Below are positions 1-37,119 of a stretch of 37,119 nt of DNA, piece by piece. Within the stretch, counting starts at the first letter, position 1. Each line of letters begins with the position of its first letter. A program made the translations under genes and the position numbers. Source of the DNA: a virus. The notes beneath the pieces were generated by a model, which worked only from the letters and a program-made list of their open reading frames with translations, was not told where the DNA came from and ran no database searches. The stretch spans positions 1 through 37,119 of IMG/VR virus record IMGVR_UViG_3300029159_000013. The stretch is one strand, 5' to 3'.

Positions 1-127
1 CTTCCAGATACAAATAAACGTCTTCGGCAGTCAACGACTTACTTTCGTTATTTCCAGAAGGATTGTAGCGACTGGCATTAGAAATACTCGTACGGCCTGC
101 TGAAAAGCTTTGAGGGGCATTGTTGAT
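1..127. repeat. 127-bp exact terminal direct repeat, copy 1, identical to 36993..37119. Circular-assembly overlap.
   Basis: Read directly: bases 1..127 are identical to bases 36993..37119. A gene runs uninterrupted across the junction. Confidence 0.9.
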
Positions 128-3512: not shown

Positions 3513-5011
3513 TATTCCTCATCTCCTAGTTCATTTTCCGCCGATATTCTTTCTTGTTCTGGGTAGTCCATTTCTAACGTTTCTGCTCTAATCTCGTAAA
3601 CTATTTTTTTGGCCTCTTTTTCAGTCACACCCGTTAATTTCTGAATAGCGCTTAGTTTTGATGAAAGACCAGCTGTAACTAATTTAGAGTAATAATCAGC
3701 TTTGGCATCTTGAGATTGAAAAACACCGTCATCAAAATCTATATTAATGCCTAGTTCTTTTGAATATTTGAATAGATTAAATGCTGCGGACAATTCGAAT
3801 ATAGTTGTAATTAATTCTTTTAATGCTTCTTCCACAATTAAGACATTATCTGAACGGGTAGAAAAAGTCTCAGAATTTTCGCTGATGATTTCCGTAGCTG
3901 TTTTGACTGATTGTCCATCAAAGCTAAATGTTCCACTTGAAAAACCGGTTTGTAATTCAACAATGCGTAAAATAAAATTGATTGTCTCAATAAATTCCTG
4001 TGACCGTAACGTAGGAACAAATTCACTAATAAAAGGATCGTCTGATTTCAACCGTTGATATACAGATGTCTTACTGTCAAATCGTTTTATAGGATTCCCT
4101 TTTTCATCATATCTAACTTTGAAGAAATGATCTGAAGCTAATATTTTTCTTCTCGCTTCTTCAACTTCATTCATAAATTCATCGTATTTTTCGTTAATAT
4201 CAATCAATTGGCGCTTCGCGTTGTCAATAATACCTAAACTCAATGGACTATCGATATCTATGTTGTTTTTTCCAGCTAGTTTTATATAGACAAATAATGG
4301 TCGAGTAAATCCGACTAAAGCAGTCTCCTCTTTTAGTTCCTTGTACTTGTCTAATGTCGGTAATGGTACCCTAACACCTGTTTGAGATTGTTCTTCTGAA
4401 CGATACAATTCGTTTCTGATATAGTAAGTGCTATTTTCCCACTCATGAAATTCTAAAAGTGTGTAATAAACATTTTTCTTACCTTCATTCTGTTGTGTAA
4501 TCGTAGCAATAGCTGCTTCAGATATATCATTAGTGTTGGACTGTAAAGGGTAAAAAGTATCAGCTCGGCAAAAGGATATTTTTATTTTGTTTGTCTTTGT
4601 GTCTACATAGGGACGTAGGACAAGCCCTCCTATTGCATATCCTGCTTCCAGCTCTTCACCAAAGTTCTTACGAAACTTATTATCGTTAAAAACTGATTGT
4701 AAAAACTGGTCCGCTTCATCATTATCAATGCTTATCGCACACCCGTCATTAAAGACTAGCTTAGCTAATTTGCGAGAAACTACTTTTGATACATTTAATG
4801 AATGAAAAGCCCTGTGCATACGCATACCATCACTATTAACGTAGCTCACATCAGGAAACTTATTTTTATATATGCGTTTGTTGTCCATTATTCTATCGAT
4901 TTCAGCAGTATTTACTCCGATTTTTGGATGATCTGTAATTCTATTAAGTGTTTCTACCATACCTATTTTTGCACCTCCAATCCTGAACATCGCTTTTAAT
5001 TTGTCAAACAT
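3512..5011 (-). CDS. Portal protein, SPP1 Gp6-like.
   Basis: 499 aa, immediately downstream of terL. Acidic C-terminus. Confidence 0.75.
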   Translation of the reverse strand: MFDKLKAMFRIGGAKIGMVETLNRITDHPKIGVNTAEIDRIMDNKRIYKNKFPDVSYVNSDGMRMHRAFHSLNVSKVVSRKLAKLVFNDGCAISIDNDEADQFLQSVFNDNKFRKNFGEELEAGYAIGGLVLRPYVDTKTNKIKISFCRADTFYPLQSNTNDISEAAIATITQQNEGKKNVYYTLLEFHEWENSTYYIRNELYRSEEQSQTGVRVPLPTLDKYKELKEETALVGFTRPLFVYIKLAGKNNIDIDSPLSLGIIDNAKRQLIDINEKYDEFMNEVEEARRKILASDHFFKVRYDEKGNPIKRFDSKTSVYQRLKSDDPFISEFVPTLRSQEFIETINFILRIVELQTGFSSGTFSFDGQSVKTATEIISENSETFSTRSDNVLIVEEALKELITTIFELSAAFNLFKYSKELGINIDFDDGVFQSQDAKADYYSKLVTAGLSSKLSAIQKLTGVTEKEAKKIVYEIRAETLEMDYPEQERISAENELGDEE

Positions 5012-5026
5012 GTAAACACCTCTTTT

Positions 5027-6316
5027 CTAGGCGATATAGGTTTTATAAAAGTAATTATTACCATACCTTGCTTCATCAAGTGCATGATTATATTTATCTA
5101 CGGGCAATCCATTGTCATTTCTCACATACATAGAGATTTCTTTTTCAAAATTATAGTGGTCAAATTCTTCTCCACATTCTAAAACTATAAATTGGCCACT
5201 TATCATGGTGTTTTGTAGTCGTTCTATTCCAACCTCTATCTTTAAACCATTACTTGAAACTTTATCGGAGCTATTGTTATCAGCTTTATCTGTAATAATC
5301 CCTATTAAGTCAAGCTCAGAACGTAACGTTTTACAGGCAGGATCGACAAAGAAATAATTCCAGTGTGGCAAATGGTTCCATTTTGTATAACACCACTCAA
5401 CAAACTGTTTAATCTCTTTTGCATAAATTGACATCGCTTTTGTTTCTCCCGTATCCGTTCCGCTATGATAGTAGTTTGCTAAACGATACAGATAAAATTT
5501 CCCAGCATAGAAGGTGACAACCCAAAATGCACAGGTAGTTGCATCAGCTTGGCCACCATCAGCAGTAAAAAACGTTTCAATGATGTTTCCTTTTATTTCG
5601 GTTGCCTTGTTGTTCTTACCGAACATCGAGTAAATAACACCTTGTGGTAGCACTCTATGACCATACCAGTCACGTTCTAAAAGATATTCGCTACTTGATA
5701 ACTCATCGTATAACTGCTGCTTTCTTGATTCACTTAAGATTGGATTATCATCTGGTGTCCAATGACGAAATAAAAAACGTCCTGATTTCTCAAAACGTTC
5801 TAACAATTCTAAATTAGGGTGATTCGGTGCTGGCGGATTCTGTTCGCCTAAATGATAGCGCCATTCTGCAGCAAAAGTACGTCTAAAGCACTCATTAATG
5901 AAATCTTTATGCAGCAAGTTAAATTCTAAGAAAGTAACTGAGCCTAACGACATACCCGTAATAGCACCAACCGAATTGATTTTGCCGCCGCCTTTGTAAT
6001 AAATCTTTTTTTCTCCGTTAGGTGCATATAAAAGCAAATGGTCCCCATGCTCATCATGTCGAATATCTGAAACACCATCAAAGATATGCATTAAGCCTAA
6101 ACCGTCACCGTCCATAAACATTCGGAAAGCTTGTTCTTGATTATAAGCAGTCACAAGATGGTTCTGGTCTGGTGAGCGTAAATAGAAGTCTGCCATTTTA
6201 AATATATCACTGGTGGTTTTTCCGCTACGAGGAGTGCCTTCGTTTAGTTCAAAGGTTACTTTACTTGTATCATAATTGATATTTGCCACTTGCTTATCAC
6301 TAAAATTAATTGCCAT
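5027..6316 (-). CDS. terL: Terminase large subunit.
   Basis: Walker A motif GTPRSGKTT near the N-terminus. 429 aa. Overlaps terS. Confidence 0.85.
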   Translation of the reverse strand: MAINFSDKQVANINYDTSKVTFELNEGTPRSGKTTSDIFKMADFYLRSPDQNHLVTAYNQEQAFRMFMDGDGLGLMHIFDGVSDIRHDEHGDHLLLYAPNGEKKIYYKGGGKINSVGAITGMSLGSVTFLEFNLLHKDFINECFRRTFAAEWRYHLGEQNPPAPNHPNLELLERFEKSGRFLFRHWTPDDNPILSESRKQQLYDELSSSEYLLERDWYGHRVLPQGVIYSMFGKNNKATEIKGNIIETFFTADGGQADATTCAFWVVTFYAGKFYLYRLANYYHSGTDTGETKAMSIYAKEIKQFVEWCYTKWNHLPHWNYFFVDPACKTLRSELDLIGIITDKADNNSSDKVSSNGLKIEVGIERLQNTMISGQFIVLECGEEFDHYNFEKEISMYVRNDNGLPVDKYNHALDEARYGNNYFYKTYIA

Positions 6317-7527: not shown

Positions 7528-7601
7528 TTGACGTGACAGGAGTCGAACCTGCATGTACTTGATTGAAAACCAACCGCTCTCACAAATTGAGCTACACGCC
7601 A
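7528..7601 (-). tRNA. tRNA-like cloverleaf with predicted anticodon UUC (Glu). No encoded CCA. One G.G mismatch at pair 27:43.
   Basis: Folded by eye. Acceptor stem TGGCGTG/CACGTCA has 7 bp. D-arm GCTC..GAGC. Anticodon arm GTTGG-TTTTCAA-TCAAG with U33 and A37. T-arm GCAGG-TTCGACT-CCTGT. Confidence 0.5.
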
Positions 7602-17710: not shown

Positions 17711-17869
17711 TTAATTCCATTCAGGTGTTGGCTCTGACCAGTCAACACTTGTCTGTTCGATTCTGTCTATGCTGATTTCAATTTTTGTATTAGGGTTGCT
17801 TTGTTCTTTTAATATCTCTACAATTTCCAACGCTAGTTCGCGTATTTTTTCTTTTCCTTCTTCATTCAT
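17711..17869 (-). CDS. Small acidic protein (52 aa).
   Basis: RBS AGGAGGG 8 nt upstream. Its stop abuts the KTSC stop, convergent. Confidence 0.45.
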   Translation of the reverse strand: MNEEGKEKIRELALEIVEILKEQSNPNTKIEISIDRIEQTSVDWSEPTPEWN

Positions 17870-17882
17870 TTCAAATTCCCTC

Positions 17883-18227
17883 CTATTCGATACCTAATAT
17901 GCTACTTAACATATCTACTTTTTGATAAATAAGGTCTTGATAGTCTTTAATCCCAAAATCATCACTTAGATTAATTTCTAGTAACTCCCGAATTTCATTA
18001 ATAACACTTTTTACTGTCGGTTCTTCAGGAGCAAGACCTTCGTATTCCATTTGTTCTTGTAACGTATAGTACACATCGTTTAAATTTTGCCCTTCCAGAT
18101 TTACCAATTGGTTGGCTGATTCTTCTGAAACGATAGTACTCAAGAATTCCTTTACTGCTCGTTTTTCTTCAATATCCATCCTAATTCTCCTTCCAGATTC
18201 CGTATTTAATAGCAAAATCTTTAACAA
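17883..18227 (-). CDS. Hypothetical acidic protein.
   Basis: 114-aa ORF. Confidence 0.45.
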   Translation of the reverse strand: MLKILLLNTESGRRIRMDIEEKRAVKEFLSTIVSEESANQLVNLEGQNLNDVYYTLQEQMEYEGLAPEEPTVKSVINEIRELLEINLSDDFGIKDYQDLIYQKVDMLSSILGIE

Positions 18228-18933
18228 CTGCTAAATAGATTTCTTTTAGTCGTTTGTCATTGTCTATGACATCTAATTTATTTGTATTCCTGATTTTGGT
18301 TTTCGAAGCACCTTCGTATGCCATGCGATTTTTTAAATTGGTTAAACGTGTTTTCAACGATGAGCCAGCTCGACGATCTACTTCGTTATAAATCGCTGTT
18401 TGTATTTCTTGATAAGCACCAAATTCACCTTGTGTTTTTGCCATCTTATTAACCAGGCTACGGCATTCTTTGCGCCAATCAGTTGTATTTAAAGCGATAA
18501 TATCCGTGATGTTATCTACCTTGTTTTCAAGACGTTTGTTCGCTATTTCTTGTTTTGCGAGTGATTGGACTACGCTATTCATGAATTGTAGTTCTGGACT
18601 TAAAGTTGACGTATCTAATTGTTCCTTGATGTGATTTTCCATTTGATTAAAAGCCTCAATATATTTCAGTTTGAACTGCAATGCCTTTTGACCAGTGAAT
18701 CCCATTGCTAGTAGTGTGAATCCGTCACGGTTCATAATTACTTGGCGATATGATTGTTTGTTTTGTGGATGAATGTAGGTGTCTTCGTAAAATAAGTCTG
18801 TCCAATTTTGGACACCCTCTTTCAAATTATCCAAGTCACGCAAAACATGTTGGTGATTTTTACTAAACGTTTCAGCAACTTGTAAACTACTTGTTACCGC
18901 TTGTTGGTCTTTCATTATTACTAAATTGTTCAT
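18181..18933 (-). CDS. Rha-family phage regulatory protein / antirepressor.
   Basis: N-terminus MNNLVIMKDQQAVTSSLQVAETFSKNHQHVLRDLDNL is like Phage_pRha. Confidence 0.6.
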   Translation of the reverse strand: MNNLVIMKDQQAVTSSLQVAETFSKNHQHVLRDLDNLKEGVQNWTDLFYEDTYIHPQNKQSYRQVIMNRDGFTLLAMGFTGQKALQFKLKYIEAFNQMENHIKEQLDTSTLSPELQFMNSVVQSLAKQEIANKRLENKVDNITDIIALNTTDWRKECRSLVNKMAKTQGEFGAYQEIQTAIYNEVDRRAGSSLKTRLTNLKNRMAYEGASKTKIRNTNKLDVIDNDKRLKEIYLAVVKDFAIKYGIWKEN

Positions 18934-19010: not shown

Positions 19011-19424
19011 GTGAAACTTGATTTATCCTTTACTATTACAGCAATTATTGCCCTTTGTGCTTTGATCACTCCGTTACTCACAACAAAAGTAAATAACTCT
19101 CACCAGATAAAACTAAAACAGTTAGAATTGAGACAGCAGTCAATCAAACAAGAGATAGACTATGTGAGAAATAAAATAGATATCTATCTTCAAACTGTTG
19201 GGGCATACATTGGCGCTGAAACAATTGAAACTCAGTCTGCCTTTGAAGAGGCACACTTTTCTCTTCTTCCTATACTACCTATGAATTTGATTCCTGTATT
19301 CGAAGATTTTTATAACATGTTGATAGTGGACCATCAATTAGAGAAATCAAGAATAGCTCTTCATCAAGCCATTGTCCCAAATCTAAAAAATATGAAAATG
19401 GGCCAGAGTGAAGAGTCCGAATAA
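19011..19424 (+). CDS. Membrane-anchored coiled-coil protein (137 aa, GTG start). Candidate lysogen-expressed moron (superinfection exclusion or Abi-like).
   Basis: RBS AAGGTGGTG 6 nt upstream of the GTG. N-terminal TM helix FTITAIIALCALITPLL. Opposite orientation to the surrounding early genes. Own promoter. Confidence 0.5.
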   Translation: MKLDLSFTITAIIALCALITPLLTTKVNNSHQIKLKQLELRQQSIKQEIDYVRNKIDIYLQTVGAYIGAETIETQSAFEEAHFSLLPILPMNLIPVFEDFYNMLIVDHQLEKSRIALHQAIVPNLKNMKMGQSEESE

Positions 19425-19587: not shown

Positions 19588-19758
19588 CTAAATGGTTGGG
19601 TGCCGAATAATATATCCTCTACCAGGTATCGAAATAACTTCGAGTGATTTTCCATAAGGATTTATTTTGATATCTATATTTTTATCCTCTTGACTACTTC
19701 CAATAGTTGAGAGGATATTTTTTATTTCTTGCTCAGTTCCTTCGATTGTTATTTTCAT
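19588..19758 (-). CDS. Small soluble protein (56 aa) downstream of cro.
   Basis: Excellent RBS AAGGAGA 8 nt upstream of the ATG. Below the track's length cutoff. Overlaps the 5' part of the 90-aa track ORF in another frame. Confidence 0.5.
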   Translation of the reverse strand: MKITIEGTEQEIKNILSTIGSSQEDKNIDIKINPYGKSLEVISIPGRGYIIRHPTI

Positions 19759-20014: not shown

Positions 20015-20221
20015 TCAACGATTAAAAAAAATAGATATTCTAGATTCTGGCATTTCTAATGCTGTTGCTATTTTTGCTAGTTCATCAACTCCCAATGAAA
20101 CTGCACCATTTTCACGTTTTGTATACATACTTCTGGTCCAACCTAATTTTTTTGCTAATTCTTCTTGCGAATAACCCTTAGCAATCCTTTCAGCCTTTAA
20201 ACGATTGAGTTCAAATTCCAT
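20015..20221 (-). CDS. cro: Cro-like XRE-family HTH repressor.
   Basis: 68 aa. HTH QEELAKKLGWTRSMYTKRENG. Divergent from cI. Confidence 0.8.
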   Translation of the reverse strand: MEFELNRLKAERIAKGYSQEELAKKLGWTRSMYTKRENGAVSLGVDELAKIATALEMPESRISIFFNR

Positions 20222-20268: not shown

Positions 20269-20297
20269 ATGATATATCGACAATTCCCGATTGTCAA
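20269..20297 (-). promoter_or_regulatory. P_cro-like promoter (TTGACA-17-TATCAT) overlapped by the operator palindrome.
   Basis: Read on the minus strand. -35 at 20292-20297 and -10 at 20269-20274. Confidence 0.5.
20279..20295. promoter_or_regulatory. Operator: perfect palindrome GACAAT-N5-ATTGTC.
   Basis: 17-bp inverted repeat in the cI-cro intergenic region, overlapping the P_cro -35 and spacer. Confidence 0.55.
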
Positions 20298-20326
20298 CTA
20301 ATTGTGCCGAATTAGAACATTTTTTG

Positions 20327-20355
20327 TTGACTATTGGGAACTTTATTAGTATTAT
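20327..20355 (+). promoter_or_regulatory. P_cI (maintenance) promoter TTGACT-17-TATTAT.
   Basis: Near-consensus sigma-A hexamers upstream of the cI RBS. Confidence 0.5.
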
Positions 20356-20366
20356 TCTCTTAGGAG

Positions 20367-21083
20367 GTGAATAATTTGAGAACAAACGATGAGATCATGA
20401 CATTAATTACAGATTTGCGCAAACAGAAAAAAATGACATCCACTGAATTAGCAGAAAAAGTAGGGATAGCTAAGTCCGCAATGTCACGTTACGAAAATAG
20501 AACAAGACAATTCCCTGTTAATAAGATATCTGATTTTGCCAAAGCTTTAGAAACAAGTCCAGAATACCTATTAGGATTTGAAGAAGAACCCCTCTCTCAA
20601 ATATTAACGAAAATAAATGAAACCTCAGCTAAGTTAGAAACTAAAAGACAAAAAAATGTATTAATATTTGCCGAGAAAGAATTAGATAAGCAAAACTTTG
20701 AAACGGAATCACGCAATAGAAAAGTTGTTCCATTGGTCGGAAAGACCGCAGCAAATCCTGCAGTTCTAGAATATGGAGATATAGACGTTGAACAGCATTC
20801 TTTCGCACACGTACCGGAAGGAGCAGATTGTGCTATTAATATTCAGGGAGATTCAATGGAACCGCTAATTAAAGATGGAAGCATTGTTTTTTATAAAAAA
20901 CAATGTGATGTTGAAAATGGTGAAATTGCAATCGTAGAAATTGATAATGATGGTGTTACATGTAAGAAAGTAATTAAAGACTACTCAAATAAACAAATTA
21001 TTTTGAGATCAATCAATACCAAATATGAAGATAGAATTTTAGAAAATGAAAAAATTAGAATTATTGGAAAAGTTATATTATAG
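20367..21083 (+). CDS. cI: CI-like repressor: XRE HTH plus S24 (LexA-like) peptidase domain. Start GTG at 20367 or TTG at 20376.
   Basis: HTH sequence TSTELAEKVGIAKSAMSRYE. The C-terminal domain aligns with LexA (PLVGKTAANPA...GDSMEP...TCKK). Confidence 0.85.
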   Translation: MNNLRTNDEIMTLITDLRKQKKMTSTELAEKVGIAKSAMSRYENRTRQFPVNKISDFAKALETSPEYLLGFEEEPLSQILTKINETSAKLETKRQKNVLIFAEKELDKQNFETESRNRKVVPLVGKTAANPAVLEYGDIDVEQHSFAHVPEGADCAINIQGDSMEPLIKDGSIVFYKKQCDVENGEIAIVEIDNDGVTCKKVIKDYSNKQIILRSINTKYEDRILENEKIRIIGKVIL

Positions 21084-21247: not shown

Positions 21248-21430
21248 ATGAATAAATATGAAGTAGAAAAAAGACTTTGCGAAGAGTTAAATATTGAATA
21301 TATTAACTTAAGTTTACGTACAGGACCTAGTCATAGATTTACTGAAAAAGAATACCAAGAACTTAAATCTGATTATGCTCAGTTATTTTTACAATTAAAC
21401 AAGCTTAATGTTGAGAAAGACCAAGAGTAG
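21248..21430 (+). CDS. Hypothetical 60-aa protein between cI and the integrase (possible excision / directionality factor).
   Basis: Strong RBS AAGGAGGG. Position inside the lysogeny module. Confidence 0.45.
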   Translation: MNKYEVEKRLCEELNIEYINLSLRTGPSHRFTEKEYQELKSDYAQLFLQLNKLNVEKDQE

Positions 21431-21458: not shown

Positions 21459-22808
21459 ATGCTAAAGAGAGCAGCGTTATACATTAGGGTTTCTACTGAT
21501 CAACAAGCAAAACACGGGGATAGTTTAGACGCACAAATAGCTACTTTAAAAGATTATGTAAGTACTCAAGACAATTTGACAATCATTGACACGTATATTG
21601 ATGACGGCATTTCAGGACAAAAATTGTACCGCGATGAATTTCAACGCTTATTAGAAGATATAAAAAAGAACAGAATAGATATTATTTTGTTTACCAAATT
21701 AGATCGATGGTTTAGAAATTTACGTCATTACTTAAATATTCAAGAAATATTAGATAATTCTGGCGTAACATGGCTTGCCGTTTCACAACCATTTTTCAAT
21801 ACTGATACTGCTTATGGGCGTTCCTTTGTTAATCAGTCAATGAGTTTTGCTGAATTAGAAGCACAAATGGCATCTGAACGTATCAAAGCAGTATTTGAAA
21901 ACAAAATTAGAAAGGGAGAAGTGGTAACTGGTAGCGTTCCTTTTGGTTATAAAATCTGTGATAAGAAGTTAATACCTAACGAAAATGCACCTATAGCAAA
22001 AGACATTTTTAAACATTATTCTATTCACAACAGTATACGCCTAACTGTTGAATATCTATTCAATGAATATGATATTACAAGAAGTTCTCGAACAATCAAG
22101 CACATGTTAAGGAATAGAAAATATATAGGTGAAGTTTCTGGTAACAAAAATTATTGTCCTCCCATAGTAGATAAGGAAACCTTTGAGAAGGTTCAAAATC
22201 TATTAGATAAAAATATTTCATCTATAGCAAAACGTACTTATATCTTTTCAGGACTGGTAGTATGTAGTTGTTGCGGTAAAAAAATGACTGGACGTTATCG
22301 AAAAAGAAAATATATTAAAAAAGATGGCACAGTGATGTATTATACAAAAAAAGTATACCGTTGTAACGGAAACACTTATAAAAGAAATAAATGCCCAAAT
22401 AAGATAAATATAGCTGAAGAGATACTTGAAGAGTATTTATTAAACAACATTAAAGCAGACGCGGAAAACTTTGAAGCTAAACAGAAGAAAATAGCAGTTT
22501 CTGCTCCTGAAAAAAACAATAATTCAAAAATACTAAAGAAAATAGAACGGTTAAAAAAAGCGTATCTTAATGAGGTTATAAGTTTAGACGAATATAAGAA
22601 AGATAGAAAAGAGCTTGAACAGATGATGATTCAAGTCAAGCCTAAGGAAACTATAGTATTTAAATCAAATTGGTTTAACAAAAATATAGAAAGTACTTAT
22701 CGTGATTTCGATGAAGAAGAAAAAAGATTTGTTTGGAGATCAGTACTTAAAAACTTAATTGTAGACCCTCATAGCAAAATAACAATTAATTTTTTAACAA
22801 AAAATTAG
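21459..22808 (+). CDS. int: Large serine recombinase (integrase).
   Basis: N-terminal resolvase catalytic motif AALYIRVSTDQQ. 449 aa with Cys-rich and coiled-coil C-terminal domains. Confidence 0.85.
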   Translation: MLKRAALYIRVSTDQQAKHGDSLDAQIATLKDYVSTQDNLTIIDTYIDDGISGQKLYRDEFQRLLEDIKKNRIDIILFTKLDRWFRNLRHYLNIQEILDNSGVTWLAVSQPFFNTDTAYGRSFVNQSMSFAELEAQMASERIKAVFENKIRKGEVVTGSVPFGYKICDKKLIPNENAPIAKDIFKHYSIHNSIRLTVEYLFNEYDITRSSRTIKHMLRNRKYIGEVSGNKNYCPPIVDKETFEKVQNLLDKNISSIAKRTYIFSGLVVCSCCGKKMTGRYRKRKYIKKDGTVMYYTKKVYRCNGNTYKRNKCPNKINIAEEILEEYLLNNIKADAENFEAKQKKIAVSAPEKNNNSKILKKIERLKKAYLNEVISLDEYKKDRKELEQMMIQVKPKETIVFKSNWFNKNIESTYRDFDEEEKRFVWRSVLKNLIVDPHSKITINFLTKN

Positions 22809-22860: not shown

Positions 22861-22894
22861 CCTCGTTCCCTAGAAGAGAGCGAGGTTTTTTTAT
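22861..22894 (+). terminator. Intrinsic terminator after int. The hairpin has T or A runs on both sides, so it may act in both directions.
   Basis: ACCTCG-N15-CGAGGT followed by T7. Confidence 0.6.
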
Positions 22895-22967
22895 GGACCA
22901 TACAGGACTCGAACCTGTGACCGAACGGTTATGAGCCGTTTGCTCTAACCAACTGAGCTAATGGTCC
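22894..22967 (-). tRNA. tRNA with anticodon CAU, elongator type. Sequence is Ile2 (lysidine)-like. No encoded CCA.
   Basis: Perfect cloverleaf: acceptor GGACCAT/ATGGTCC, D-arm GCTC-AGTTGGTTA-GAGC, anticodon arm AACGG-CTCATAA-CCGTT, T-arm ACAGG-TTCGAGT-CCTGT. G1:C72 is paired and the anticodon stem lacks the three G-C pairs, so this is not an initiator. Confidence 0.8.
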
Positions 22968-36961: not shown

Positions 36962-37119
36962 GACGAAACACCTCGATATAACAAACCTGTACCTTCCAGA
37001 TACAAATAAACGTCTTCGGCAGTCAACGACTTACTTTCGTTATTTCCAGAAGGATTGTAGCGACTGGCATTAGAAATACTCGTACGGCCTGCTGAAAAGC
37101 TTTGAGGGGCATTGTTGAT
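36955..37119 (-). CDS. C-terminal part of the junction-spanning connector gene. Stop TAA at 36955-36957 overlaps the ATG of the next gene.
   Basis: Same frame as 1..367 once the 127-bp duplication is collapsed. Confidence 0.55.
   Translation of the reverse strand: MNNAPQSFSAGRTSISNASRYNPSGNNESKSLTAEDVYLYLEGTGLLYRGVSSC
36993..37119. repeat. 127-bp terminal direct repeat, copy 2.
   Basis: Identical to 1..127. Confidence 0.9.

What the first reader, a model, noticed from the sequence alone, without database searches (positions are those of the whole stretch)
20367..21083. CI repressor keeps the LexA-like S24 catalytic dyad but has Ala-Asn at the position of the Ala-Gly scissile bond. The phage also carries an Rha-type antirepressor.
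The C-terminal domain aligns by eye with LexA: PLVGKTAANPA versus PLVGRVAAGEP, GDSMEP versus GMSMKD, TCKKVIK versus TVKRLKK. The catalytic Ser and Lys are present, but the Gly of the cleavage site is Asn (LexA G85 substitutions are non-inducible). The repressor may therefore resist RecA-stimulated autocleavage. Induction could instead run through the Rha-family antirepressor (18181..18933) or another route.
Basis: partly seen in the sequence, partly recalled or inferred. Interest (0 to 1): 0.55.

Follow-up and report, generated by a model that had tools for sequence, protein, structure and literature searches.

The report
Phage repressor with Ala-Asn-Pro cleavage motif
This Enterococcus faecalis phage repressor really has asparagine where LexA-type self-cleaving repressors have glycine, but the change is a conserved feature of a whole clade and comes with matching active-site changes, so it looks like a working, undescribed variant of the cleavage site.

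Summary
ORF 20367..21083 (likely start TTG 20376) encodes an HTH_XRE + Peptidase_S24 repressor. It keeps Ser163 and Lys200. HMMER and ungapped BLASTP alignments place Asn130 at the LexA Gly85 position. The protein has no Ala-Gly or Cys-Gly anywhere.

The interpretation (non-cleavable, induced through Rha) is weakly supported.
- "AANP" is not a lesion. It occurs in 104 of 269 collected homologues from Enterococcus, Carnobacterium, Brochothrix and Lactiplantibacillus, down to about 31% identity, always with the dyad.
- Both Asn codons occur among near-identical prophages.
- AANP-type C-terminal domains sit among Ala-Gly types (up to 70% identical). They also swap with them behind an identical DNA-binding domain (L. 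plantarum prophage versus phage Sha1).
- The Asn/Ser state covaries with Arg/Lys at the LexA Ile177 position, a catalytic-pocket residue: 19 of 19 versus 8 of 132.
- Rha lies in the repressed lytic operon and has no LexA box. The same cI-cro-antirepressor layout occurs in phages with Ala-Gly repressors, including 80alpha.
- The phage encodes no ImmA-like protease.

Best reading: a functional repressor that self-cleaves at Ala129-Asn130. No cleavage was tested. I found no report of an Ala-Asn site in S24 proteins.

The parts
20376..21083 (+). CI-type repressor gene. The ORF opens at GTG 20367 (238 aa). The likely start is TTG 20376 (235 aa).
   Evidence: ORF list and sequence. Pfam HTH_3 + Peptidase_S24. 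Most homologues are 235 aa.
20412..20570 (+). N-terminal HTH_XRE DNA-binding domain (residues 16-68, GTG numbering).
   Evidence: Pfam HTH_3 6.2e-10. The model shows helices there.
20730..20762 (+). Cleavage-site region P-L-V-G-K-T-A-A-N-P-A (residues 122-132).
   Evidence: HMMER alignment to LexA residues 77-87. The motif is conserved in 104 homologues.
20751..20756 (+). Codons GCA AAT for Ala129-Asn130, the predicted scissile bond (LexA Ala84-Gly85 position).
   Evidence: Asn is encoded by AAC or AAT in relatives.
20775..21077 (+). Peptidase_S24 catalytic and dimerisation domain (residues 137-237).
   Evidence: Pfam 2.3e-22. Foldseek matches LexA and lambda CI C-terminal domains.
20853..20855 (+). 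Ser163 codon (TCA), the predicted nucleophile in GDSMEP.
   Evidence: Aligned to LexA Ser119. Invariant in the AANP clade.
20964..20966 (+). Lys200 codon (AAG), the predicted general base in TCKK.
   Evidence: Aligned to LexA Lys156. Invariant in the AANP clade.
21033..21035 (+). Arg223 codon (AGA), at the LexA Ile177 pocket position. It covaries with Asn/Ser at P1'.
   Evidence: R/K in 19 of 19 AAN/AAS types versus 8 of 132 AAG types. Ile177 is listed as a LexA pocket residue in PMC10020695.
20222..20366 (.). Divergent switch region. The lytic promoter is on the minus strand (TTGACA 20297-20292, 17 nt spacer, TATCAT ending at 20269). The repressor promoter is on the plus strand (TTGACT 20327, TATTAT ending at 20355). 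Candidate operators are the perfect palindrome GACAATTCCCGATTGTC at 20279-20295 and 18-nt inverted arms at 20284-20301 and 20323-20340.
   Evidence: Promoter scan, inverted repeats, and the palindrome is the only exact match to that pattern in the window. The operator role is inferred.
20015..20221 (-). Cro-like HTH gene (68 aa), first gene of the lytic operon.
   Evidence: Pfam HTH_3 3.5e-14. It is divergent from the repressor.
18181..18933 (-). Rha-type antirepressor-like gene (250 aa), downstream of cro on the same strand.
   Evidence: Phage_pRha 1.1e-28. phrog_373 anti-repressor 1.5e-73. No Cheo box upstream.
21459..22808 (+). Serine integrase of the lysogeny module (context).
   Evidence: Pfam Resolvase + Recombinase + Zn_ribbon_recom.

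Best explanation
The gene encodes the functional maintenance repressor of a temperate Enterococcus faecalis siphophage.

**Proposed mechanism**
1. The HTH domain binds operators in the 145-bp divergent promoter region (inferred).
2. This shuts off the cro-...-rha lytic operon (inferred).
3. The C-terminal S24 domain is an active Ser163/Lys200 autopeptidase. Its internal substrate is the conserved loop V-G-K-T-A-A|N-P (inferred from conservation).
4. On DNA damage, RecA* most likely stabilises the loop in the active site, and the chain is cut between Ala129 and Asn130 (inferred, not shown).
5. The cut separates the DNA-binding domain from the dimerisation domain. It leaves an N-terminal fragment ending in -Thr-Ala-Ala-COOH, which resembles the -Val-Ala-Ala-COOH ClpXP degron exposed when LexA is cleaved (inferred by analogy).

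Asn-Pro at P1'-P2' is the native state of a clade of repressors in Lactobacillales and Brochothrix phages. In that clade the catalytic pocket has changed in step, notably Arg at the LexA Ile177 position. This is therefore a specificity variant of the Ala-Gly site rather than an inactivated one.

Rha is an early lytic-operon product expressed after derepression, not the trigger.
For: **Shown**
- Domain architecture, the dyad and the exact positional equivalence of Asn130 with Gly85.
- AANP occurs in 104 of 269 collected homologues. It also occurs in 9 of about 145 representatives of 50%-identity clusters, across several genera. Pairwise identity falls to about 31%, and the GxSM Ser and the Lys are kept in every member.
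- Asn is encoded by AAC (10) or AAT (6), and the covarying Arg by AGA, AGG or CGT. This variation is seen even among prophages with identical C-terminal domains, which indicates purifying selection.
- One AASP variant exists in a C-terminal domain 82% identical to the query's. Ser (AGY) is the single-step codon intermediate between Gly (GGY) and Asn (AAY).
- The nearest Ala-Gly-type C-terminal domain is 70% identical. In a neighbour-joining tree the AANP types are interleaved with Ala-Gly types.
- L. plantarum prophage repressor P0029 (AANP type) and phage Sha1 gp43 (Ser-Ala-Gly type) are near-identical over residues 1-110, then only about 30% identical from just before the cleavage site. The two kinds of C-terminal domain are therefore exchanged as equivalent modules.
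- Position 223 is Arg/Lys in 19 of 19 non-redundant AAN/AAS proteins and in 8 of 132 AAG proteins (Fisher p = 3.5e-18, not corrected for phylogeny).
- Four of the ten columns that best separate the two types are LexA L113, S116, E152 and I177. These are 4 of the 5 non-catalytic C-terminal-domain residues listed as lining the LexA pocket in PMC10020695 (hypergeometric p = 3.6e-4).
- The window carries a 127-bp terminal direct repeat, so it is a circular assembly with attP internal. This is consistent with excised or packaged phage DNA.

**From the literature**
- E. faecalis prophages are induced by SOS-triggering agents (PMC3675006).
- The C-terminal Ala of the LexA N-terminal fragment is a ClpXP signal (Neher et al. 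2003, as cited in PMC12273997 and PMC10584840).
Against: - No AANP-type protein has been assayed for cleavage.
- Every S24 cleavage site described in the papers I could read is Ala-Gly. From memory, saturation mutagenesis of LexA (Mo et al. 2014, not readable here) found a preference for Gly at P1'.
- The AlphaFold2 model gives pLDDT below 50 for the loop (residues 126-136 in TTG numbering). It therefore says nothing about whether Asn can dock in the active site.
- The Arg223-Asn130 contact is inferred from covariation and from a docking-based pocket list, not from coordinates.
- The covariation is partly confounded by shared ancestry.
- Only three sequenced phages in the 50,697-record collection carry this C-terminal domain type: BL3, NF5 and zrk29-2. 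Yet it is common in E. faecalis and L. plantarum genomes. This could mean such prophages are recovered less readily after induction.
Confidence: 0.5

Rival explanations
1. Asn at P1' makes the repressor refractory to RecA*-stimulated self-cleavage. Induction is driven by an antirepressor (Rha) or another route, and the S24 domain serves mainly for dimerisation.
For: - Acidic substitutions of the P1' Gly abolish induction in LexA and in phi11 CI.
- A Rha-type gene with antirepressor-family matches is present.
- AANP-type repressors are rare among sequenced, isolated phages.
Against: - Ser and Lys, and the P3-P1 residues (Ser/Thr-Ala-Ala), are invariant across an AANP clade that has diverged to about 31% identity. 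That is unexpected for a protease with no substrate.
- Pocket residues co-vary with P1'.
- Rha lies inside the operon that the repressor controls. The scan found no sigma-70-like promoter directly upstream of it, and the window has no GAAC-N4-GTTC box.
- The same gene order occurs next to Ala-Gly repressors, including 80alpha, and phi11 CI is cleaved on SOS induction.
Confidence: 0.2
2. The repressor does self-cleave at Ala-Asn, but the trigger or threshold is not classical RecA*. One possibility is slow RecA-independent autodigestion modulated by pH or stress, as reported for the S. suis XRE-S24 regulator PrlP. Another is an altered RecA dependence set by an Asn-Arg latch.
For: - PrlP shows stress-modulated self-cleavage in a Lactobacillales XRE-S24 protein.
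- In the RecA*-LexA complex, residues flanking the scissile bond (R81, E86, P89, Q91) touch RecA. Changing P1'-P2' to Asn-Pro could therefore alter RecA coupling.
- Pocket remodelling goes together with the Asn state.
Against: - PrlP itself uses Ala-Gly.
- The basic P4 residue that contacts RecA in LexA (R81) is kept as Lys126.
- E. faecalis prophages are generally SOS-inducible.
Confidence: 0.2
3. The repressor is inactivated by cleavage at another bond or by a protease acting in trans (host Clp or Lon, or an ImmA-like enzyme). On this view the AANP motif serves another role, such as a structural turn.
For: - Related E. faecalis phages such as phiFL1A use an XRE repressor with an ImmA/IrrE metalloprotease at the same genomic position.
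- ClpX is needed after CI cleavage in S. aureus.
Against: - No ORF of 70 aa or more in the window contains an HExxH motif.
- AANP sits exactly where the S24 substrate loop lies.
- Conservation of the dyad argues for cis activity.
Confidence: 0.1

Closest known systems
E. coli LexA (MEROPS S24; PDB 1JHE, 1JHF, 8GMS)
   Same: - The same C-terminal fold and Ser-Lys dyad.
- The same P6-P1 pattern, V-G-basic-x-A-A (VGKTAA versus VGRVAA).
- A loop-into-active-site architecture.
   Different: - P1'-P2' is Asn-Pro instead of Gly-Glu.
- Pocket positions L113, S116, E152 and I177 are Ile, Gln, Gly and Arg here.
- The N-terminal domain is an XRE-type HTH rather than the LexA winged helix.
Phage lambda CI and Staphylococcus phage phi11/80alpha CI
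   Same: - HTH + S24 architecture.
- A divergent cI/cro switch next to the integrase.
- In 80alpha, an antirepressor-like gene follows cro.
- phi11 CI is cleaved on SOS induction, and its N-terminal fragment is handled by ClpX.
   Different: - Those repressors cleave at Ala-Gly (lambda A111-G112; phi11 G131E is SOS-insensitive).
- The register of the 80alpha site against this protein is ambiguous: BLASTP and MAFFT differ by two residues.
Brochothrix phages BL3 gp34 and NF5 gp28; L. plantarum and other E. faecalis prophage repressors (AANP type)
   Same: - The same AANP motif, dyad and Arg at the 223 position.
- The same cI-cro-antirepressor-like layout with a serine integrase.
   Different: - The N-terminal DNA-binding domains differ, so immunity specificities differ.
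- None has been characterised biochemically.
Lactobacillus phage Sha1 repressor gp43
   Same: Its N-terminal 110 residues are near-identical to those of the AANP-type L. plantarum repressor P0029. A Rha + KilAC gene follows cro.
   Different: It has a canonical Ser-Ala-Gly cleavage region and a C-terminal domain only about 30% identical.
Type I signal peptidases (MEROPS S26, same clan SF)
   Same: Ser-Lys dyad chemistry and a preference for small residues at P3 and P1. From my own knowledge, they accept many P1' residues other than Pro, which shows that the chemistry does not need Gly at P1'.
   Different: They cleave in trans, are membrane enzymes, and have no conformational switch. This comparison was not tested here.

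Membership tests
Peptidase family S24 (LexA-like autopeptidases) | S24 domain, by sequence and by fold | tested here: met
   Pfam PF00717 2.3e-22. Foldseek matches LexA and lambda CI C-terminal domains, with target TM-scores of 0.70-0.79 for the C-terminal-domain chains.
Peptidase family S24 (LexA-like autopeptidases) | Ser-Lys catalytic dyad | tested here: met
   Ser163 and Lys200 align to LexA S119 and K156. Both are invariant in the clade.
Peptidase family S24 (LexA-like autopeptidases) | Ala-Gly (or Cys-Gly) scissile bond in the loop before the catalytic core | tested here: not met
   Ala129-Asn130 occupies that position. There is no AG or CG dipeptide in the whole protein (translation).
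Peptidase family S24 (LexA-like autopeptidases) | Self-cleavage at alkaline pH or with RecA* | not testable with these tools
   This needs purified protein. No published assay of an AANP-type protein was found.
Lambda-CI-type prophage maintenance repressor | [quoted passage not shown] | tested here: met
   HTH_3, HTH_26 and HTH_31 hits at residues 16-73.
Lambda-CI-type prophage maintenance repressor | Divergent from a cro-like gene, with back-to-back promoters and palindromic operators, within the lysogeny module | tested here: met
   cro-like gene at 20015..20221 (-). Promoters at 20297 (-) and 20327 (+). Palindrome at 20279-20295. Integrase at 21459..22808. Operator binding itself was not tested.
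SOS-controlled antirepressor induction (Gifsy, 186 Tum and N15 AntC type) | Antirepressor gene under a host LexA operator, outside the control of the phage repressor | tested here: not met
   There is no GAAC-N4-GTTC box in the window. The best 14-mer, with one mismatch, lies at 17827, downstream of rha. rha is co-oriented with cro and downstream of it.
Rha / phage antirepressor-like proteins | Phage_pRha N-terminal domain | tested here: met
   PF09669 1.1e-28. phrog_373 1.5e-73.
Rha / phage antirepressor-like proteins | Binds and inactivates the cognate repressor | not testable with these tools
   No assay is available. The family names are annotations only.
ImmR/ImmA (XRE repressor plus metalloprotease) immunity modules | Adjacent ImmA/IrrE zinc metalloprotease (HExxH) | tested here: not met
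   No HExxH motif in any ORF of 70 aa or more. phiFL1A has such a module at the equivalent position.

The most novel reading that the evidence does not exclude
AANP-type repressors form a distinct specificity class of S24 autopeptidases. In this class Asn at P1', fixed by the following Pro, is read by an Arg in the catalytic pocket (the LexA Ile177 position). This Asn-Arg pairing would change how easily the cleavage loop enters the active site. Prophages of Lactobacillales would then have an induction threshold or trigger different from that of Ala-Gly repressors in the same hosts.
Probability: 0.3. Interest if true: 0.6.

Novelty: new variant of a known kind. Interest (0 to 1): 0.45.

Why it matters
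- S24 repressors (LexA, CI, UmuD) are routinely recognised, and judged inducible or not, by the Ala-Gly/Cys-Gly rule. If a conserved Ala-Asn-Pro class with a matching pocket Arg cleaves, that rule mislabels a common class of E. faecalis and L. plantarum prophage repressors as non-inducible.
- It would provide a natural experiment on what P1' does in the LexA conformational switch.
- It could reveal prophages tuned to a different SOS threshold in gut and food bacteria.
- If the class does not cleave, the strict retention of the dyad would itself need explaining.

Tried and rejected
- **LexA boxes.** I searched the whole window for Firmicute LexA (Cheo) boxes. There was no exact core. The only one-mismatch 14-mer lies downstream of rha.
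- **ImmA-like protease.** I looked for one through HExxH motifs and found none.
- **Structure prediction.** I used AlphaFold2 to see whether the Asn docks in the active site. The loop has pLDDT below 50. Foldseek rmsd values against open and closed LexA structures are mixed, so nothing could be concluded.
- **Anchoring on 80alpha/phi11.** I tried to anchor the site on the genetically defined phi11/80alpha site. BLASTP and MAFFT disagree by two residues, so I did not use it.
- **Literature.** No paper in the held library pairs Ala-Asn with LexA. Mo et al. 2014 and Ndjonka & Bell 2006 are not held, so the P1' tolerance data are cited from memory only.
- **Induction data.** I found no induction data for BL3 or NF5.
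- **Genome scan.** The species-representative genome scan returned only three AANP loci, because it used two peptide patterns. It is not a census.
- **Link to V583 prophages.** I could not link the repressor to the experimentally induced V583 prophages. The cluster names carry no strain information.

Full report
**What is in the sequence**

Pfam finds an XRE-type HTH at residues 16-68 and a Peptidase_S24 domain at residues 137-237 (2.3e-22).

The GTG at 20367 overlaps the Shine-Dalgarno AGGAGG. TTG at 20376 is the more likely start, and most database homologues are 235 aa.

phmmer against PDB sequences aligns 'plvgktaaNpavl' with E. coli LexA 'plvgrvaaGepll', 'gdSmep' with 'gmSmkd', and 'vtcKk' with 'vtvKr'. 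In GTG numbering the equivalences are:
- Ala129-Asn130 = LexA Ala84-Gly85
- Ser163 = LexA Ser119
- Lys200 = LexA Lys156

A 57%-identical homologue (P0031) aligns without any gap as GKTAAGTTPVTYGD against GKTAANPAVLEYGD. The protein contains no Ala-Gly or Cys-Gly dipeptide at all.

**Genomic setting**

The window is an Enterococcus faecalis temperate phage.
- It carries a 127-bp terminal direct repeat. The head genes continue across the window ends, so it is a circular assembly of about 36,992 bp.
- The repressor is divergent from a cro-like HTH gene at 20015..20221 (-).
- The 145-bp spacer holds back-to-back sigma-70-like promoters. It also holds a perfect palindrome, GACAATTCCCGATTGTC, which overlaps the -35 box of the lytic promoter.
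- Downstream of the repressor lie a 60-aa ORF, a serine integrase and a tRNA-Met gene at the probable attP.
- Downstream of cro, on the minus strand, lie small ORFs and then the Rha-type gene at 18181..18933 (Phage_pRha 1.1e-28; phrog_373 'anti-repressor').

**The Asn is a clade character, not a lesion**
- Among the 120 best database homologues, 'AANP' is the majority motif.
- Over all 269 collected proteins, 104 have AANP, one has AASP, and 141 have an Ala/Cys-Gly.
- Nine of about 145 representatives of 50%-identity clusters are AANP types.
- The hosts include Enterococcus, Carnobacterium, Brochothrix (phages BL3 and NF5), Lactiplantibacillus and Furfurilactobacillus.
- AANP proteins diverge to about 31% pairwise identity, yet all keep the GxSM serine and the lysine.
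- At the DNA level, Asn is AAC in 10 loci and AAT in 6. Both codons occur among E. faecalis prophages with identical C-terminal domains. That is the signature of purifying selection on the amino acid.
- The single AASP variant sits in a C-terminal domain 82% identical to the query's. Ser (AGY) is the one-step codon intermediate between Gly (GGY) and Asn (AAY).

**AANP and Ala-Gly domains behave as equivalent modules**
- Excluding the motif, the query's C-terminal domain is 70% identical to the nearest Ala-Gly type. In a neighbour-joining tree the AANP types fall in several groups interleaved with Ala-Gly types.
- The L. plantarum prophage repressor P0029 (AANP) and the phage Sha1 repressor (Ser-Ala-Gly) are near-identical over residues 1-110. 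They then drop to about 30% identity from just before the cleavage site. This is a recombination that exchanges the two kinds of C-terminal domain behind one DNA-binding specificity.
- E. faecalis AANP domains are likewise joined to unrelated N-terminal domains.

**The catalytic pocket changes with P1'**

I compared AAN/AAS proteins with their closest Ala-Gly relatives. The best-discriminating column is residue 223, in the sequence K-Y-E-D-R.
- It is Arg (17) or Lys (2) in all 19 non-redundant AAN/AAS proteins.
- It is Arg or Lys in only 8 of 132 Ala-Gly proteins, which mostly have Ile or Met. Fisher p = 3.5e-18, not corrected for phylogeny.
- This column is LexA Ile177.

Four of the ten best-discriminating columns are LexA L113, S116, E152 and I177. 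A modelling paper lists V82, L113, S116, E152, T154, K156 and I177 as the residues lining the LexA catalytic pocket (PMC10020695). The overlap has hypergeometric p = 3.6e-4.

I could not measure the Arg223-Asn130 distance. Model coordinates are not returned, and the loop is predicted with pLDDT below 50.

**Rha is not a specific partner of the Asn state**
- rha is co-oriented with cro and lies downstream of it.
- The scan found no sigma-70-like promoter directly upstream of it.
- The window has no GAAC-N4-GTTC LexA box.
- The repressor-cro-antirepressor-like order occurs with AANP repressors (BL3, L006, L007). It also occurs with Ala-Gly repressors (Sha1, 80alpha).
- phi11 and 80alpha CI are cleaved on SOS induction, and the phi11 G131E mutant is SOS-insensitive (PMC10584840).
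- phiFL1A shares the rha region at 85.6% nucleotide identity, but it uses an XRE + ImmA module instead.
- The window encodes no HExxH protease.

**Most likely mechanism**

The most likely mechanism is a working CI-type repressor that self-cleaves at Ala129-Asn130, most probably on RecA* stimulation. The N-terminal fragment would end in -Thr-Ala-Ala-COOH. This is like the -Val-Ala-Ala-COOH ClpXP signal of cleaved LexA. The basic P4 residue that touches RecA in the LexA complex is retained as Lys126.

The steps from 'conserved' to 'cleaves', and from 'cleaves' to 'RecA-dependent', are inferences. I put this explanation at 0.5.

The rivals are:
- refractory to cleavage and induced otherwise (0.2);
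- self-cleaving with a non-classical trigger or threshold (0.2);
- cleaved elsewhere or in trans (0.1).

One point favours the first rival. Only BL3, NF5 and zrk29-2 among 50,697 sequenced phage records carry this domain type, although it is on hundreds of E. faecalis contigs.

**Comparison with what is known**

The protein meets the fold and dyad criteria of family S24. It fails the Ala-Gly/Cys-Gly criterion. I found no paper pairing Ala-Asn with LexA-type cleavage, and recent S24 papers define the site as Ala-Gly. The non-inducible P1' substitutions I could document are all acidic. I therefore rate this a new variant of a known kind. It is of moderate interest and is directly testable with a cleavage assay and with N130G and R223M mutants.

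Noticed in passing
window 1-127 and 36993-37119: The first and last 127 bases are identical, and the head-tail adaptor and major head genes continue across the ends. The window is a circular assembly (a k-mer overlap artefact) of a phage genome of about 36,992 bp, not an excised prophage segment.
   Followed up: partly
window 22894-22967 (-) and 7528-7601 (-): A complete tRNA-Met gene lies just after the integrase. It is probably the attP core and is about 98% identical to stretches in EFC-1, phiFL4A and IME197. A tRNA-Glu gene sits near the small terminase.
   Followed up: partly
window about 19018-19424 (+), hairpin 19683-19717: A plus-strand ORF lies antisense inside the early lytic operon, between the small ORFs and rha. 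It follows the RBS AAGGTGGTG, starts at GTG around 19018, and has an N-terminal hydrophobic segment. A strong plus-strand terminator-like hairpin (14-bp stem plus a T-run) follows it. It may be a lysogen-expressed moron. It has only a weak PHROG hit.
   Followed up: partly
L004 (Enterococcus phage phiFL1A, NC_013646.1) 4423-6128: phiFL1A shares the rha region with the window at 85.6% nucleotide identity. It has an XRE repressor plus an ImmA/IrrE metalloprotease where the window has the S24 repressor, so the whole immunity module has been replaced.
   Followed up: partly
OP650937.1 (Hujiaoplasma phage zrk29-2) 24746-25282: The repressor of this phage, attributed to a deep-sea Tenericutes host, is 81.7% identical to a Lactiplantibacillus plantarum prophage repressor (P0029). 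The host assignment looks doubtful.
   Followed up: no
proteins P0015, P0019, P0037 (E. faecalis): Very similar AANP-type C-terminal domains are fused to unrelated N-terminal HTH domains. This shows frequent shuffling of DNA-binding and cleavage modules among E. faecalis prophage repressors.
   Followed up: partly
proteins P0139 and P0256: Two homologues have Asp at the P1' position (AADIP, TADSP). Both also have a changed residue before the catalytic Ser (EDSME, DDSML instead of GDSME). They may be degenerate or a further variant.
   Followed up: no
window 21248-21430 (+): A conserved 60-aa ORF (phrog_7724, 3e-38, unknown function) lies between the repressor and the integrase. It is on the lysogeny strand and has its own RBS.
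   Followed up: no
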